A stretch of 64,000 nt of DNA from a virus (IMGVR_UViG_2875713109_000001); one strand, 5' to 3'; numbered from the stretch's first letter, positions 35,687-38,245 are shown. Numbers and translations are program-made. The notes: a model not told the origin generated them from the sequence alone.

Positions 35687-36349
35687 ATGCTCGCCTGGAG
35701 GCTGAATTTGCAGCTGAGAATGAACATACCACCCAGGGCGACTAGGACTGTTTTTTGTGTCGGTAGCGGTCCGTCACTCACTCGTGAGGACTGTGCTGCT
35801 ATAGAAAAAACTGGCTGTTCAATCATCGCGGTTAACAATTCCTGGCAGATGTTCGATGACATTTATGCCTTATACGCCGGTGATTTGTCATGGTGGAAGC
35901 AATACGGATCCACCATACCGGGAGGGAGATTCCGCAAAGTGACAGCTAACCTGGCGGCGGCGAAATCATTTTCGTTGGAGTACAGGCGATATTGTGGACC
36001 GGCGGAAGGGGTAAATAGCGGCGCGCAGGCTATCAGTCTGGCTGCTGAATCAGGGGCTGAAGTAGTGGTATTAGTCGGCTATGACTGTTCTCTGCAAAAC
36101 GGTCTTCATTGGCATGGCGCGCACCCTCAAGCCCTACGGAATCCAACGCAGGTGTCTATTTCAAAATGGCAACAGCAGTTCCTGGATACCCGCAAAAAAC
36201 ACGCAGATTTACATATTTTGAATGCAAGTAGGAGCAGTGCAATTCAATGTTTCCCAAGAATAAATTTAGAGGCAGTGATCGCGTTATTATCGTCGGCAGT
36301 GGCCCAAGCGCCGCAAACTTTGTTGCGCCGCGCGGAGTGCCTATTATAG
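35687..36349 (+). CDS. MptE/DUF115-like protein (MAF_flag10-type)
   Basis: VFCVGSGPSL near N-terminus, IIAVNNS, LVGYD; 3-prime end overlaps next gene by 103 nt; start uncertain (35687 or 35720). Confidence 0.45.
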   Translation: MLAWRLNLQLRMNIPPRATRTVFCVGSGPSLTREDCAAIEKTGCSIIAVNNSWQMFDDIYALYAGDLSWWKQYGSTIPGGRFRKVTANLAAAKSFSLEYRRYCGPAEGVNSGAQAISLAAESGAEVVVLVGYDCSLQNGLHWHGAHPQALRNPTQVSISKWQQQFLDTRKKHADLHILNASRSSAIQCFPRINLEAVIALLSSAVAQAPQTLLRRAECLL

Positions 36350-36873
36350 CGGTCAATGGGGCCATCGACTGGCTGAACCGCGCTTCTTATTTTTTCACAC
36401 TTGATCCATCGCCAGACAATATGCGGCGCGTTGGTCGTGGCCGCCGTCGCCGTGGTGTTTGTTATTGCATGGCACTACCCGATGTTAAAGAACGTGAAGT
36501 CAGAGACGGCGTTCTGTGCTTCCGTCGTGTGGCTGAACGTGGCATGGAGCCAAAAAATACGAATTCTCCCGAGTGGTGGGCGTGGCGCTGGTCCGCACAT
36601 TTCGGACTTTGCGAAGATGAGAATGAAATTGCCAGCGGCAATAGTGCATATGGCGCTCTGAACCTGGCTTTCCATATCGGATTCAAACATGTCGCCCTGG
36701 TGGGCGTTGACGCTACACAAGAACCACGCGTTCACTCCGGCGGCACGCCAAAAAATCTAAGTCACCTGCCTTTGTTATTCCAGTCTGCGCGTGAACAGAT
36801 TGACGTTGTTTCATGCGGGAAAATGGGAGGCATTCCGCAGATGACTCTTAAAGAATGGCTGAAGAATACATGA
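36247..36873 (+). CDS. MptE/DUF115-like protein, paralog of 35687..36349
   Basis: [22 protein letters not shown] motifs in same order as upstream paralog. Confidence 0.45.
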
Positions 36874-37547
36874 TGGCACCCACAATTTATCACCGTATCG
36901 ACGGTACCAAATACAGGAATGTCTGGGTTGTTGGTGATCTGCATGGTTGCTACACCAGACTGATGTCCGAACTCCATCGTGTGGATTTTGACCCGGCGCA
37001 GGATTTACTGATATCGGTCGGCGACCTTATCGATCGCGGTACTGAAAATGTCGAATGTCTGGAACTATTGCAGATGCCCTGGTTCAGGGCAGTGATGGGG
37101 AACCATGAGCGGCTGATGATTGATGCGTTAAGTCCAGATGGCAACGTGAATAACTGGCTAATGAATGGCGGACAATGGTTCTTCATGCTGGACACTGATC
37201 AGGAAATATTAGCCTGGGCGCTGGTGGAGCTGGTAAAGCGTCTGCCCTATATCATTGAGTTGAACACCGGGCAAGAAACTATCGTTATAGCCCATGCCGA
37301 CTATCCGGATAATGAATACCAATTCGGTAAGGAGGTGCCGCTTTTCAACGTTGTCTGGGCGCGCGAGCGTATCAGTGATTCGATGGATGATATTGGTGGC
37401 GAAATTTCGGGCGCAGATCGTTTTATCTTTGGTCACACTGCGGTGAAAAGCCCGAAGACATTCTGGAATCAGCAGTATATCGACACTGGTGCCGTATTTT
37501 GCGGAAACCTGACATTGATGAAAGTGAAAGGTGATGGTGCAGCATGA
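36873..37547 (+). CDS. ppp: Ser/Thr protein phosphatase (lambda PPase-like)
   Basis: GDLHGC, GDLIDRG, GNHE metallophosphatase motifs; collinear with lambda phosphatase from [16 protein letters not shown]; ATG overlaps upstream stop (TGATG). Confidence 0.8.
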
Positions 37548-38245
37548 AGATTGCTTTAGTTTTTCGCTCTGGTGGTGACTATAACGCTTCCGATGTGCAG
37601 TGGTTGGTTAATCAACTGCCAAAAGGCTATGAAATTATTTGCCTGACAGACCTGAAGCGTTTACATGTACCTGGCGTCAAAGTTGTCCCATTGATCAACC
37701 AGTGGCAAAAGTGCCGTGGCTGGTGGGCGAAAATAGAGTTGTTCCGACCGGATATAACAGATGATCTGTTCTATCTGGATTTGGACACAGTTATTGCCGG
37801 TGATATACGCCCAATCCTTGAGAATCCACCAACCAGCTTCACCATGCTTAGGGATTTTTACCATCCACATTATCGTGGTAGCGGTGCCCTGTGGATACCA
37901 AATAGTGTAAAAGCGCATATCTGGAGTTCATTCTGGCAAGATCCGGAAGGTTGGATTTCTCGTTGTGTCACTACTGAGTGCTGGGGTGATCAGGGGTTCT
38001 TACGGAAGGTTATGGGCGATGATACACCAGCATTTCAGGATCTGTATCCTGGATGGTTTGTAAGTTACAAGGCCGATGTTGTGGAACCTGGTTCAAAATA
38101 TGCGAGCGCGCGTTACTCCAGGGGGAATGGGGCATTACCAAAGGACTGCCGAATAATCTTTTTCCACGGCAAACCGCGACCTCGCGAAGTGTCAGAGGAT
38201 TGGCTTCCCCTTATTAGCTCGTTTTTTGAGCGAGAATCAGAATAA
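37544..38245 (+). CDS. putative nucleotide-sugar transferase-like protein (DxD motif)
   Basis: 233 aa with YLDLDTVI DxD-type motif; start overlaps ppp stop (ATGA). Confidence 0.35.

What the first reader, a model, noticed from the sequence alone, without database searches (positions are those of the whole stretch)
35687..38245. Early operon with duplicated MptE/DUF115-like genes, a lambda-type phosphatase and a DxD protein
Two adjacent paralogs share GSGPS, IAVN and LVG(Y/V)D motifs typical of MptE-like/MAF_flag10 proteins, and the first overlaps the second by 103 nt. They are followed by a lambda-PPase-like phosphatase and a DxD-motif protein. The combination suggests enzymatic modification of a host or phage macromolecule rather than morphogenesis.
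Basis: partly seen in the sequence, partly recalled or inferred. Interest (0 to 1): 0.45.

Follow-up and report, generated by a model that had tools for sequence, protein, structure and literature searches.

The report
Phage P1 three-enzyme glycosylation cassette
This stretch is the pmgO-pmgP-ppp-pmgQ operon of phage P1: three non-essential sugar-transferase genes, interrupted by an unrelated phosphatase gene, that recur as a set in many unrelated phages and probably attach a short sugar chain to proteins, perhaps the virus particle itself.

Summary

New findings:
- pmgO, pmgP and pmgQ form a mobile triad. It sits in late or structural modules of lambdoid, HK97-like, T5-sized and jumbo phages across Proteobacteria, and in one Bacteroidota genome.
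- The triad often travels with sugar O-methyltransferases, extra glycosyltransferases and, once, kdsB (CMP-Kdo synthetase).
- ppp occurs only in the P1 lineage.
- The pmgO/pmgP overlap is conserved at 40-109 nt in enterobacterial relatives. One phage has them fused.
- In chromosomal islands the genes lie among Ig-like (Big_1) adhesin genes.

Best reading: a PmgO/PmgP pair transfers a CMP-activated acid sugar (Kdo in E. coli), PmgQ adds a hexose, and the acceptor is a protein, most likely a virion protein. LPS-core remodelling is the main rival. P1 deletion mutants are viable, so this can be tested directly.

The parts
34590..34608 (+). Late (Lpa-dependent) promoter LPpmgL, upstream of pmgL-pmgM and of the cassette. 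It allows late read-through transcription.
   Evidence: Annotated in P1 AF234172. The sequence is identical in the window.
35491..35546 (.). Predicted sigma-70 promoter PpmgN (35491-35517, + strand) and the C1 repressor operator Oppp/Op83 (35530-35546, - strand). These would give C1-repressed, early-on-derepression expression.
   Evidence: P1 annotation. The operator sequence AAATTAATTAGTGCATG is identical between the window and P1. Promoter activity was not tested here.
35590..35745 (+). pmgN: small acidic 51-aa ORF specific to the P1 lineage. It overlaps pmgO by 59 nt, or by 26 nt if pmgO starts at 35720.
   Evidence: It has no homolog in the non-P1 cassettes.
35687..36349 (+). pmgO: single-domain enzyme with the Maf / MptE / GT42 fold. 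Motifs: GSGPS 35762-35776, IAVN 35825-35836, LVGYD 36071-36085, HWHGAH 36107-36124. The likely true start is ATG 35720. The last ~25 codons are an unconserved tail read across the start of pmgP.
36247..36349 (+). 103-nt dual-coding overlap of pmgO (frame 0) and pmgP (frame -1). The pmgP ATG lies inside PmgO's conserved Q-C-F codons, with an AGGAG 12 nt upstream.
   Evidence: The same embedded start, with overlaps of 40-109 nt, occurs in L003, L004, L093, L094, L114 and L116. The PmgP reading frame is conserved and the PmgO tail is not.
36247..36873 (+). pmgP: paralog of pmgO and the most conserved gene of the triad. Motifs: GSGPS 36295-36309, IAVN 36346-36357, LVGVD 36697-36711, and an invariant His in LSHLP 36757-36771.
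   Evidence: hhalign against the PmgO family, E 1.4e-13. Weak match to the WaaZ N-terminus, TIGR04437 E 0.11.
36855..37547 (+). ppp: lambda-type PPP-family Ser/Thr phosphatase. Motifs: GDLHG 36933-36947, GDLIDRG 37020-37040, GNHE 37098-37109. It is a P1-lineage insertion between pmgP and pmgQ and is not part of the conserved cassette.
   Evidence: Pfam Metallophos E 1.3e-15. PHROG NinI-like E 4e-112. NCBIfam PrpA/PrpB-like. Absent from all non-P1 cassettes. Stands alone in phage D6.
37544..38245 (+). pmgQ: GT8-like GT-A (retaining-type) glycosyltransferase. Key residues: K63 in WWAK (37721-37732), D79-L-D81 (37778-37786), G148-D149-Q150 (37985-37993), H208 in FHGKPRP (38162-38182).
   Evidence: AF2 model, pLDDT 94. 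Foldseek top hits are all GT8: 6MW5 E 4.4e-9, glycogenin, WbbM, LgtC, GlyE. Family profile against PDB: 6MW5 E 1.9e-6, aligning K, DxD and GD. Invariant columns.
38247..38312 (.). C1 operators OpmgRa and OpmgRb with predicted promoter PpmgR. This is the start of the next transcription unit (pmgR, pmgS, pap) and marks the 3' end of the cassette.
   Evidence: P1 annotation. Conserved in the window.

Best explanation
pmgO, pmgP and pmgQ are a self-contained, horizontally mobile glycosylation cassette. ppp is an unrelated lambda-type phosphatase gene that landed inside it in the P1 lineage.

PmgO and PmgP are two diverged copies of a minimal Maf / GT42-type catalytic domain, the fold used by transferases of CMP-activated acid sugars. 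They most likely work as a pair (inferred).

In E. coli K-12 the only CMP-activated sugar of this class is CMP-Kdo. The pair is therefore proposed to transfer Kdo (inferred).

PmgQ is a GT8-like, metal-dependent retaining transferase. It is proposed to add a hexose from a UDP-sugar, either before or after that step (inferred).

Relatives add sugar O-methyltransferases and further glycosyltransferases, so the product is a short and variable glycan.

The enzymes have no recognisable membrane or export features and are made during lytic growth, so the acceptor is cytoplasmic. I think it most likely that the acceptor is a protein: in phages a surface protein of the virion, and in the chromosomal islands Ig-like (Big_1) adhesins. 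The result would be particles decorated with sugar. That decoration would be dispensable for plaque formation in the laboratory.

Shown here: identity of the locus, paralogy, folds, catalytic motifs, conservation of the triad and of the overlap, and the gene contexts.

Inferred: hetero-pairing, the donors, the acceptor and the biological role.
For: Locus identity and dispensability:
- Identified as P1 pmgO-pmgP-ppp-pmgQ.
- Dispensability rests (PMC10695390, PMC9024508).

Enzyme class:
- The PmgO family profile aligns both nucleotide-binding motifs to Cst-II, weakly (E about 0.25).
- PmgQ is GT8-like by fold and by sequence profile (E 1.9e-6). K63, D79xD81, D149-Q150 and H208 are conserved.

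Pairing of PmgO and PmgP:
- A natural PmgO-PmgP fusion, P0051.
- Tandem O-O proteins.
- An embedded pmgP start and an overlap conserved in seven loci.

The triad as a unit: it is conserved in about 20 distinct contexts.

Glycan-building partners:
- A kdsB equivalog (270 bits against a cutoff of 155) in a P1-like relative.
- SAM or TylF-type sugar O-methyltransferases, either adjacent or fused.
- GT2-, GT4- and Nucleotid_trans-like genes.

Kdo as donor: a Maf enzyme expressed in E. coli uses CMP-Kdo to O-glycosylate Ser/Thr (PMC11339370).

Protein or virion acceptor:
- The cassette lies directly after the major capsid gene in Pseudomonas, Ochrobactrum and Zhongshania prophages.
- It lies in late operons elsewhere.
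- It is present in phages of T5-like genome size and in jumbo phages.
- Jumbo phage XacN1, which carries the cassette, has at least two virion glycoproteins (PMC5852040).
- In chromosomal islands O, P and Q are interleaved with Big_1/invasin-type proteins.
- One PmgO homolog is fused to Big_1/Big_13 domains.
- A PKD-domain giant protein follows the cassette in XacN1.
Against: - No glycan has ever been reported on P1 virions. A P1 virion proteome and a recent capsid cryo-EM paper do not mention one. Neither study looked for it.
- I found no Big_1-like protein among the ORFs of this 64-kb window; P1 genes outside the window were not searched.
- The kdsB link rests on one locus, and kdsB lies about 3.5 kb from pmgQ.
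- The XacN1 authors attribute their glycoproteins to two other glycosyltransferases.
- GT8 enzymes and WaaZ also act on LPS cores.
- Positions next to lysis genes are also classic sites for unrelated cargo genes.
- No hetero-complex was modelled or measured.
Confidence: 0.45

Rival explanations
1. LPS inner-core remodelling. PmgO/PmgP act like WaaZ, the KdoIII transferase, and PmgQ acts like the GT8 core transferases (WaaO, WaaR, WaaJ, LgtC). Together they alter nascent LPS core during lytic growth. This would mask or truncate the LPS receptor of P1, so that superinfection is blocked or progeny are not lost on debris.
For: - Weak WaaZ matches confined to the N-terminal GSGPS region: TIGR04437 E 2.9e-4 for the fusion P0051 and E 0.11 for P1 PmgP, plus a precomputed faint PF27901 WaaZ_KDO_III hit.
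- kdsB in a relative.
- LgtC and WbbM are among PmgQ's fold hits.
- The cassette lies next to lysis genes in several prophages.
- waaZ over-expression truncates the outer core (title of Frirdich 2003, cited).
- P1 adsorbs to LPS core glucose (my own knowledge, not checked here).
Against: - The WaaZ scores are far below the cutoff (11.9-20.3 bits against 200) and cover only about 50 residues.
- The operon is C1-repressed in P1, so this is not lysogenic conversion.
- Old LPS stays in the outer membrane during a latent period of 30-60 min, so masking would be inefficient (inference).
- The cassette sits inside head-gene clusters, and in T5-sized and jumbo phages.
- It occurs in hosts with very different core structures, including a Bacteroidota genome.
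- The chromosomal copies are tied to Ig-like proteins, not to waa loci.
Confidence: 0.2
2. The acceptor is a host protein or another cytoplasmic macromolecule rather than the virion. Candidates are a host surface or defence protein, or an RNA. In this reading the cassette is a host-takeover or counter-defence tool. In P1 it might cooperate with Ppp on Ser/Thr sites.
For: - C1-controlled early expression in P1.
- ppp is translationally coupled between pmgP and pmgQ, and is kept there in a Pantoea P1-like plasmid at 58% identity.
- The chromosomal islands show that cellular proteins can be the neighbours.
- No virion phenotype is known.
Against: - ppp is missing from all other cassettes.
- The cassette is embedded in structural or late modules in most phages.
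- No specific host target is suggested by any context.
Confidence: 0.15
3. PmgO and PmgP are not glycosyltransferases. They would be MptE- or thiamin-pyrophosphokinase-type small-molecule diphosphokinases, making a phosphorylated metabolite or signal.
For: - The Pfam family name.
Against: - The GxGPSL and SG...GxD motifs align with Cst-II.
- The genes are always linked to a GT8 enzyme, and often to further glycosyltransferases, sugar O-methyltransferases and kdsB.
Confidence: 0.07
4. The 103-nt overlap is a programmed -1 frameshift site that produces a PmgO-PmgP fusion protein. Candidate slippery sequences are T TTC CCA at 36250 and A AAT TTA at 36262, in the pmgO frame.
For: - pmgP is in the -1 frame.
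- X XXY YYZ heptamers are present in the window, and A AAA AAT in L004.
- A natural in-frame fusion joins the two proteins at the same point.
Against: - There is no heptamer in L003 or L094.
- A GGAG-type Shine-Dalgarno sequence 5-12 nt before the pmgP ATG is conserved in the window, L004, L093, L094 and L116. Independent or coupled initiation therefore suffices.
- Non-enteric relatives overlap by only 11-13 nt.
Confidence: 0.05

Closest known systems
Maf (motility-associated factor) flagellin glycosyltransferases, PF01973 / MAF_flag10 (for example M. magneticum Maf, PDB 5MU5, and C. botulinum Maf)
   Same: - Same nucleotide-binding motifs.
- Maf enzymes are cytoplasmic and O-glycosylate Ser/Thr of a structural protein with CMP-activated acid sugars. 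One of them uses CMP-Kdo in E. coli (PMC11339370).
   Different: - Maf proteins are about 600 aa, with extra N- and C-terminal acceptor-binding domains, and are encoded with flagellin and nonulosonic-acid synthesis genes.
- PmgO and PmgP are bare ~190-220 aa catalytic domains that occur as a diverged pair, in phages, always with a GT8 enzyme.
GT42 bacterial sialyltransferases Cst-I / Cst-II (Campylobacter jejuni)
   Same: - GxGPSL and SG...GxD motifs align.
- This resemblance is the basis of the PHROG/RefSeq label 'alpha-2,3-sialyltransferase'.
   Different: - Sequence similarity is not significant (E about 0.25).
- Cst enzymes act on lipo-oligosaccharide.
- E. coli K-12 makes no CMP-sialic acid, so the database name is unlikely to describe the reaction in P1's usual host.
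WaaZ (KdoIII transferase; CAZy GT73 from my own knowledge) and the GT8 LPS-core transferases (WaaO, WaaR, WaaJ, LgtC)
   Same: - Kdo and hexose chemistry from the same donor pools.
- Weak similarity between the WaaZ N-terminus and PmgP.
- LgtC is among PmgQ's fold hits.
   Different: - Scores are far below the family cutoff.
- No waa-locus context.
- The phage late-module and Ig-like-protein contexts point elsewhere.
GT8 enzymes that build glycans on proteins: Skp1 alpha-galactosyltransferase (6MW5), glycogenin, and GlyE of the pneumococcal serine-rich-repeat adhesin pathway
   Same: - Top fold and sequence-profile hits of PmgQ.
- Lys, DxD, GD(Q) and C-terminal His are conserved.
- GlyE extends O-glycans on an adhesin, which parallels the adhesin islands seen here.
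   Different: - PmgQ is shorter (about 210-240 aa).
- It gets no Pfam PF01501 hit.
- Its donor and acceptor are unknown.
Virion glycosylation in mycobacteriophages (glycosyltransferase and methyltransferase operons that decorate capsid and tail proteins). Known to me from Freeman et al. 2023, and echoed in PMC11256854.
   Same: - Phage-encoded glycosyltransferases, with or without O-methyltransferases.
- Non-essential for plaque formation.
- Act on virion proteins in the cytoplasm.
   Different: - Different enzyme families and Gram-positive-type hosts.
- For P1 the modification itself is still hypothetical.
Lambda protein phosphatase (NinI / ORF221) and E. coli PrpA/PrpB
   Same: - Ppp has all three PPP-family motifs.
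- The P1 record gives it as 64% identical to lambda phosphatase.
- PHROG NinI-like E 4e-112.
   Different: Here it is embedded in a glycosyltransferase operon. That placement is specific to the P1 lineage.

Membership tests
Pfam PF01973 (MptE-like / DUF115) | HMM score at or above the gathering threshold (34.6 bits) | tested here: not met
   PmgO scores 23.4 bits and PmgP 20.9 bits, each over only the last ~35 profile positions. Close homologs at 62-74% identity carry precomputed PF01973 hits, and the O-P fusion P0051 scores 44.6 bits. Membership therefore holds by transitivity, not by direct score.
MptE / Maf / GT42 fold superfamily | Rossmann-like alpha/beta domain that superposes on Maf, MptE and Cst-I | tested here: met
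   [not shown]
MptE / Maf / GT42 fold superfamily | N-terminal G-x-G-P-S loop, a downstream Asn, an (N/T)-S-G helix cap and a G-x-D strand | tested here: met
   These are invariant in both families: P, N, D, S, G, D across 72 sequences.
Maf flagellin glycosyltransferases | Multi-domain protein of about 600 aa with acceptor-binding domains flanking the catalytic domain | tested here: not met
   PmgO is 220 aa and PmgP 208 aa. The match covers 163 of the 632 residues of 5MU5.
Maf flagellin glycosyltransferases | Genomic linkage to flagellin and nonulosonic-acid biosynthesis genes | tested here: not met
   None in P1, and none in any of the roughly 20 contexts inspected.
Maf flagellin glycosyltransferases | Transfer of a CMP-activated ulosonic acid to Ser/Thr of a protein | not testable with these tools
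   Only indirect support: kdsB in locus L004, and the literature precedent for CMP-Kdo use by Maf.
WaaZ KdoIII transferase (TIGR04437 / PF27901) | Equivalog HMM score at or above 200 bits | tested here: not met
   11.9 bits for P1 PmgP and 20.3 bits for P0051, over the N-terminal ~50 residues only.
GT8 glycosyltransferases | GT-A fold with a DxD motif, an upstream Lys, a D-Q motif and a C-terminal His as metal and donor ligands | tested here: met
   AF2 model with pLDDT 94. The 50 top-listed Foldseek hits are GT8 or GT8-like, with E down to 4.4e-9. K63, D79, D81, G148, D149 and H208 are invariant and Q150 is nearly invariant. K, DxD and GD align to 6MW5 and 5GVV. The assignment of ligand roles comes from my knowledge of LgtC and glycogenin.
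GT8 glycosyltransferases | Match to Pfam PF01501 (Glyco_transf_8) | tested here: not met
   No Pfam family at E up to 10. The family profile does reach GT8 structure 6MW5 at E 1.9e-6. PmgQ is therefore a distant, unclassified GT8-like clade (PHROG 1962).
PPP-family (lambda-type) Ser/Thr phosphatases | GDxHG, GDxxDRG and GNHE motifs, and a Metallophos domain above threshold | tested here: met
   Motifs at aa 27-31, 56-62 and 82-85. Pfam 58.8 bits against 21.5. NCBIfam PrpA/PrpB models score 269 and 241 bits, below their equivalog cutoffs of 326 and 332, so Ppp is a homolog and not an equivalog.
Phage virion glycosylation systems | Glycan demonstrated on virion proteins and dependent on the phage glycosyltransferases | not testable with these tools
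   There are no data for P1. XacN1, which carries the cassette, has at least two virion glycoproteins, but their enzymes are unassigned (PMC5852040).

The most novel reading that the evidence does not exclude
P1, together with a large and phylogenetically broad set of phages of Gram-negative bacteria, O-glycosylates surface proteins of its own virion with a short Kdo-containing glycan. It would do so by diverting LPS precursors (CMP-Kdo, UDP-hexose) through a split Maf-like PmgO/PmgP heterodimer plus a GT8 enzyme. The same cassette would have been domesticated by some enterobacteria to glycosylate Ig-like adhesins. This would be the first virion glycosylation system in a classical Gram-negative model phage, and the first natural protein O-Kdo modification.
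Probability: 0.25. Interest if true: 0.8.

Novelty: new variant of a known kind. Interest (0 to 1): 0.55.

Why it matters
P1 is one of the most used phages in genetics. Yet the pmgL-pmgV block has carried the placeholder 'putative morphogenetic function' for twenty years, and only four papers in the searched library mention pmgO at all.

This analysis replaces the placeholder with a concrete, testable model: a three-enzyme glycan-building cassette. The cassette is widespread. The PmgO family alone has 487 clusters at 50% identity with E below 1e-30. It moves between unrelated phages and into chromosomal adhesin islands.

If the acceptor is the virion, this would extend phage particle glycosylation from mycobacteriophages to Gram-negative phages. 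That bears on immune recognition of therapeutic phages, on particle stability, and on the use of P1 as a delivery vector. It would also provide small, soluble enzymes for protein O-glycosylation in E. coli.

The experiment is cheap because the in-frame P1 deletion mutants already exist (PMC9024508).

The analysis also exposes a systematic annotation error caused by the gene overlap.

Tried and rejected
1. Structure of the natural O-P fusion with a joint alignment. MAFFT stacked the PmgO homologs onto the PmgP half, so the alignment was unusable for the N-terminal half. I modelled PmgO and PmgQ separately instead.
2. Foldseek against afdb50, to look for WaaZ and other annotated relatives. The library was unavailable.
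3. A viral-contig scan with the PmgP alignment returned only near-identical P1 copies. Diversity came from genome contigs and from exact-protein look-ups.
4. The locus of the PmgO-Big_1 fusion P0229 was not found in viral contigs. Its reading frame may simply run from pmgO into the next gene, since a 'MANKIIL...' start follows the PmgO domain.
5. Search for a Big_1-like protein in the window with phmmer: nothing at E up to 1.
6. Programmed -1 frameshifting in the overlap. Heptamers are not conserved while Shine-Dalgarno sequences are, so I rate this unlikely.
7. DNA glycosylation as the function: rejected. P1 has no hydroxymethyl-base pathway and its DNA is ordinarily restrictable (my knowledge). 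The chromosomal islands and capsid-adjacent positions do not fit either. Two contexts next to ribonucleotide reductase genes (L108, XacN1) are noted but weak.
8. Lysogenic conversion: rejected for P1 because of C1 repression. It is also made unlikely in general by the cassette's presence in T5-sized and jumbo phages, whose lifestyle was not checked here.
9. Ppp as a cassette component: rejected on distribution.
10. The P1 genome paper (Lobocka 2004) could not be read. A P1 capsid cryo-EM paper has no mention of glycans or unassigned density.
11. PDB sequence searches with single proteins and with the PmgP profile were uninformative.
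Full report
**What the region is**

The window is a P1-type phage-plasmid. Bases 35400-38400 are 99.3% identical to phage RCS47 and 98.0% identical to P1. With the P1 record as a guide, the four ORFs of the finding map as follows:

| Gene | Window coordinates | Protein identity to P1 |
|---|---|---|
| pmgO | 35687-36349 | 219/220 |
| pmgP | 36247-36873 | 207/208 |
| ppp | 36855-37547 | 226/230 |
| pmgQ | 37544-38245 | 228/233 |

Upstream lie pmgL, pmgM (a VRR-NUC nuclease) and the small pmgN. Downstream lie pmgR, pmgS and pap.

P1's annotation places several regulatory sites around the locus:
- a late promoter (LPpmgL) before pmgL;
- a C1 operator (Oppp, formerly Op83) with a predicted sigma-70 promoter just before pmgN;
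- two more C1 operators right after pmgQ.

All of these sequences are conserved in the window. The unit is therefore repressed in the lysogen and expressed on derepression. It can also be reached from a late promoter. 'Early operon' is only half the story.

**Check of the observation**

The pmgO/pmgP overlap is exactly 103 nt, with pmgP in the -1 frame.

The two proteins are barely similar in a pairwise comparison (E 0.003). I aligned 37 PmgO homologs (A1) and 52 PmgP homologs (A2). The profiles match each other at 98% probability and E 1.4e-13 over 165 columns. A joint alignment leaves P, N, D, S, G and D invariant across both families. They are real, old paralogs.

Direct Pfam scores against PF01973 are below threshold for the P1 proteins. 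Closer-to-consensus homologs and a natural fusion protein do pass.

**What the proteins are**

PmgO:
- The AlphaFold model is confident (pLDDT 87).
- By Foldseek it has one significant PDB match: the Maf flagellin glycosyltransferase 5MU5 (E 4.4e-5).
- The PmgO family profile aligns its GSGPSL and SG...GYD motifs with the CMP-binding motifs of Cst-II, though weakly.

PmgQ:
- The model has pLDDT 94.
- All top fold hits are GT8 enzymes: Skp1 alpha-galactosyltransferase, glycogenin, WbbM, LgtC, GlyE, LARGE1 and XXYLT1.
- Its family profile reaches GT8 structures by sequence (6MW5, E 1.9e-6), aligning the Lys, the DxD and the GD(Q) motif.
- K63, D79, D81, D149 and H208 are invariant in 30 homologs.

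Ppp carries the three PPP-phosphatase motifs and is a lambda NinI / PrpA-PrpB homolog.

RefSeq already labels pmgO 'alpha-2,3-sialyltransferase' and pmgQ 'glycosyltransferase', taken from PHROGs. The enzyme class is therefore not a new idea. No function has been tested.

**A conserved, mobile triad**

Looking up homologs in their contigs showed that pmgO, pmgP and pmgQ travel together in otherwise unrelated elements:

| Element | Locus | Arrangement |
|---|---|---|
| Citrobacter rodentium lambdoid prophage | L003 | O-P-Q between lysis genes and terminase |
| Divergent P1-like phage | L004 | O-P-Q-R-S |
| P22-portal-type phage | L006 | O and P fused into one 376-aa protein, then Q and a fourth glycosyltransferase |
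| HK97-type prophages of Pseudomonas, Ochrobactrum, Zhongshania | L007, L008, L101 | Cassette follows the major capsid gene directly |
| Alloalcanivorax, Citrobacter sedlakii, Hafnia and a metagenomic lambdoid phage | - | Next to lysis or antiterminator genes |
| Commensalibacter, Methylophilaceae, Microbulbifer, Brevundimonas, Erwinia and a Sinomicrobium (Bacteroidota) genome | - | Triad present |

Among isolated phages the cassette is in the P1 group, Cronobacter JK004, Citrobacter phiNP and the 111-116 kb coliphages EP_H11 and IME392. It is also in the jumbo phages XacN1, Xoo-sp13, CM1 and RAS14.

An exhaustive profile search finds 487 PmgO-family clusters with E at or below 1e-30, and 3777 at or below 1e-10.

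ppp is present only in P1-lineage copies (L091-L093). It stands alone, without O/P/Q, in phage D6. It is an insertion, not a component of the cassette.

**Accessory genes all concern sugars**

The following accessories were found with the triad:
- SAM-dependent methyltransferases between P and Q (L009, L101, L107, L122).
- TylF-type sugar O-methyltransferase domains fused to PmgQ (XacN1 ORF373) or to PmgO (P0315).
- GT2-like, GT4-like and Nucleotid_trans-like genes.
- In the P1-like L004, a kdsB equivalog (TIGR00466, 270 bits against a cutoff of 155). It is followed by a Pap-like HAD phosphatase with a 4-nt overlap.

KdsB makes CMP-Kdo. CMP-Kdo is the only CMP-activated acid sugar in E. coli K-12. 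The Maf / GT42 / GT29 fold is the fold that uses such donors. A clostridial Maf expressed in E. coli does use CMP-Kdo to O-glycosylate Ser/Thr (PMC11339370). This is the basis for proposing Kdo as PmgO/PmgP's sugar in P1's host. It remains an inference.

**The overlap and the pair**

In enterobacterial relatives the pmgP ATG always lies inside PmgO's conserved (K/Q/T)-C-(F/Y) codons, preceded by a GGAG-type ribosome-binding site. Overlaps range from 40 to 109 nt (window, L003, L004, L093, L094, L114, L116).

The PmgP reading of the overlap (…R-x-I-I-V-G/A-S-G-P-S-A…) is conserved. The PmgO tail is not. The minimal ~40-nt dual-coding stretch encodes PmgO's last helix and PmgP's N-terminus. P1's extra ~60 nt are an unconstrained PmgO extension. 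Non-enteric copies overlap by only 11-13 nt.

Three observations argue that the working unit is a dimer of two such domains, with translation coupled by the overlap:
- the natural in-frame fusion joins the proteins at exactly this point;
- tandem O-O proteins exist;
- O and P almost always co-occur.

Slippery heptamers exist in the window but are not conserved, so programmed frameshifting is unlikely.

The overlap causes annotation errors:
- pmgP starts are mis-called at a downstream GTG in L003 and L004, which removes the GSGPS loop;
- pmgP is left unannotated in EP_H11;
- pmgO is truncated to 161-174 aa in many E. coli records.

**What is glycosylated?**

This is the weakest link. Three kinds of context point to proteins:

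1. *Position in phage genomes.* The cassette is embedded in late or structural modules, several times immediately after the capsid gene. It also occurs in T5-sized and jumbo phages. That argues against lysogenic conversion and for a role during particle production.
2. *Chromosomal copies.*
   - In five Pseudescherichia/Enterobacteriaceae species-level genomes the three genes are chromosomal. They are interleaved with an inverse-autotransporter invasin and five further proteins, four of which have Big_1 or Invasin_D3 domains (L095-L099, L113).
   - In Serratia plymuthica, pmgO sits next to two Big_1 proteins.
   - One PmgO homolog runs on into Big_1/Big_13 domains.
   - In XacN1 the next gene encodes a 1088-aa protein with a PKD Ig-like domain.
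   - Ig-like domains are common surface decorations of phage particles (my knowledge).
3. *Direct observation in a carrier.* XacN1 virions contain at least two glycoproteins (PMC5852040). The authors credited other glycosyltransferases.

PmgO's best match (Maf) and several of PmgQ's best matches (glycogenin, the Skp1 enzyme, GlyE) are protein-glycan enzymes.

Against this reading:
- nothing is known about glycans on P1 particles;
- I found no Big_1 relative in the window;
- the LPS alternative keeps real support, namely weak WaaZ similarity, kdsB, LPS-core enzymes within GT8, positions next to lysis genes, and LPS being P1's receptor.

I put the protein/virion model at about 0.45 including its enzymatic premises, LPS-core remodelling at 0.2, another cytoplasmic target at 0.15, and a non-glycosyltransferase (pyrophosphokinase) reading at 0.07.

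**Genetics already available**

In-frame deletions of pmgN, pmgO, pmgP, pmgQ, ppp and pap were made in P1CMclr100. Only pmgA, B, C, G and R proved essential. The other 24 mutants had no plaquing or anti-restriction defect (PMC9024508, main text and supplement).

A genome-wide CRISPRi screen also scored pmgO, pmgP, ppp and pmgQ as non-essential (PMC10695390).

'Morphogenetic' in the strict sense is therefore excluded. A decorative modification would fit these results.

**Verdict**

- The locus is known and already loosely labelled in databases.
- New here are the recognition of a widespread O-P-Q glycan-building cassette, its conserved dual-coding junction and fusions, its Kdo link, and its association with capsid genes and Ig-like proteins.
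- This gives a specific experiment on a classical phage for which the mutants are already in hand.

Noticed in passing
window 35590-35745 (pmgN), overlapping pmgO: pmgN is a 51-aa acidic ORF found only in close P1 relatives. CRISPRi scored it essential while the in-frame deletion is viable (PMC10695390 against PMC9024508). The guide may have been polar on the operon or may have hit the Oppp/promoter region.
   Followed up: partly
window 35687-35720; also L003 8510-8603, L004 8525-8633, L124 6001-6609: The overlaps produce systematic annotation errors. pmgO is truncated to 161-174 aa in many E. coli records, which loses GSGPS. pmgP is started at a downstream GTG in two metagenomic contigs. pmgP is left unannotated in phage EP_H11. 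The misspelling 'norphogenetic protein' has spread through NCBI names.
   Followed up: yes
L004 11846-13892: A divergent P1-like phage carries an unknown 271-aa gene (no Pfam or PHROG hit). It is followed by a kdsB equivalog, then by a Pap-like HAD phosphatase that overlaps kdsB by 4 nt. P1's own pap (window 39883-40389, HAD_PNKP-like) might therefore be a sugar-phosphate phosphatase, analogous to KdsC, rather than a polynucleotide phosphatase.
   Followed up: partly
L113 2236-18532 (Pseudescherichia chromosome); L121 2674-5115 (Serratia plymuthica): Islands of Big_1/Invasin_D3 proteins interleaved with pmgO/P/Q homologs. Several of these Ig-like proteins start without an obvious signal peptide and are 17-24% Ser+Thr. 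Next to one island lies a prophage remnant (holin, Q, P, lysozyme), which suggests that the phage cassette was domesticated.
   Followed up: partly
P0216, P0321: PmgO domains fused to a ~300-aa C-terminal domain. That domain carries a G-L-G-D-x-I-Y-Q-R-A-F motif reminiscent of GT9 heptosyltransferases, but it has no Pfam hit. It may be another LPS-precursor-using transferase.
   Followed up: no
window 34945-35523 (pmgM) and 34697-34942 (pmgL): pmgM is a VRR-NUC / Holliday-junction-resolvase-like nuclease (Pfam E 3e-4; PHROG 5702 E 6e-27), still named 'putative morphogenetic function'. pmgL has a weak treble-clef zinc-finger-like match. pmgM is kept next to the cassette in L004 and L093.
   Followed up: partly
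window 57500-62500: The low-GC stretch (0.35) is mat plus the EcoP1I type III res/mod genes. It is 99.9% identical to P1 and P7, and lacks the IS5 insertion carried by the P1 mod749::IS5 reference.
   Followed up: yes
L003 9796-10437: In the Citrobacter rodentium prophage the gene right after pmgQ, just before the small terminase gene, matches PHROG 1924 'minor tail protein' (E 6e-63). This is an odd place for a tail gene, and the protein is a candidate acceptor or partner.
   Followed up: no
L110 7617-8672; L123 18340-19260: Head-module proteins with weak CBM_5_12 carbohydrate-binding-module matches lie next to PmgO-like genes in a Mesorhizobium prophage, and in the Hafnia prophage that carries the cassette.
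   Followed up: no
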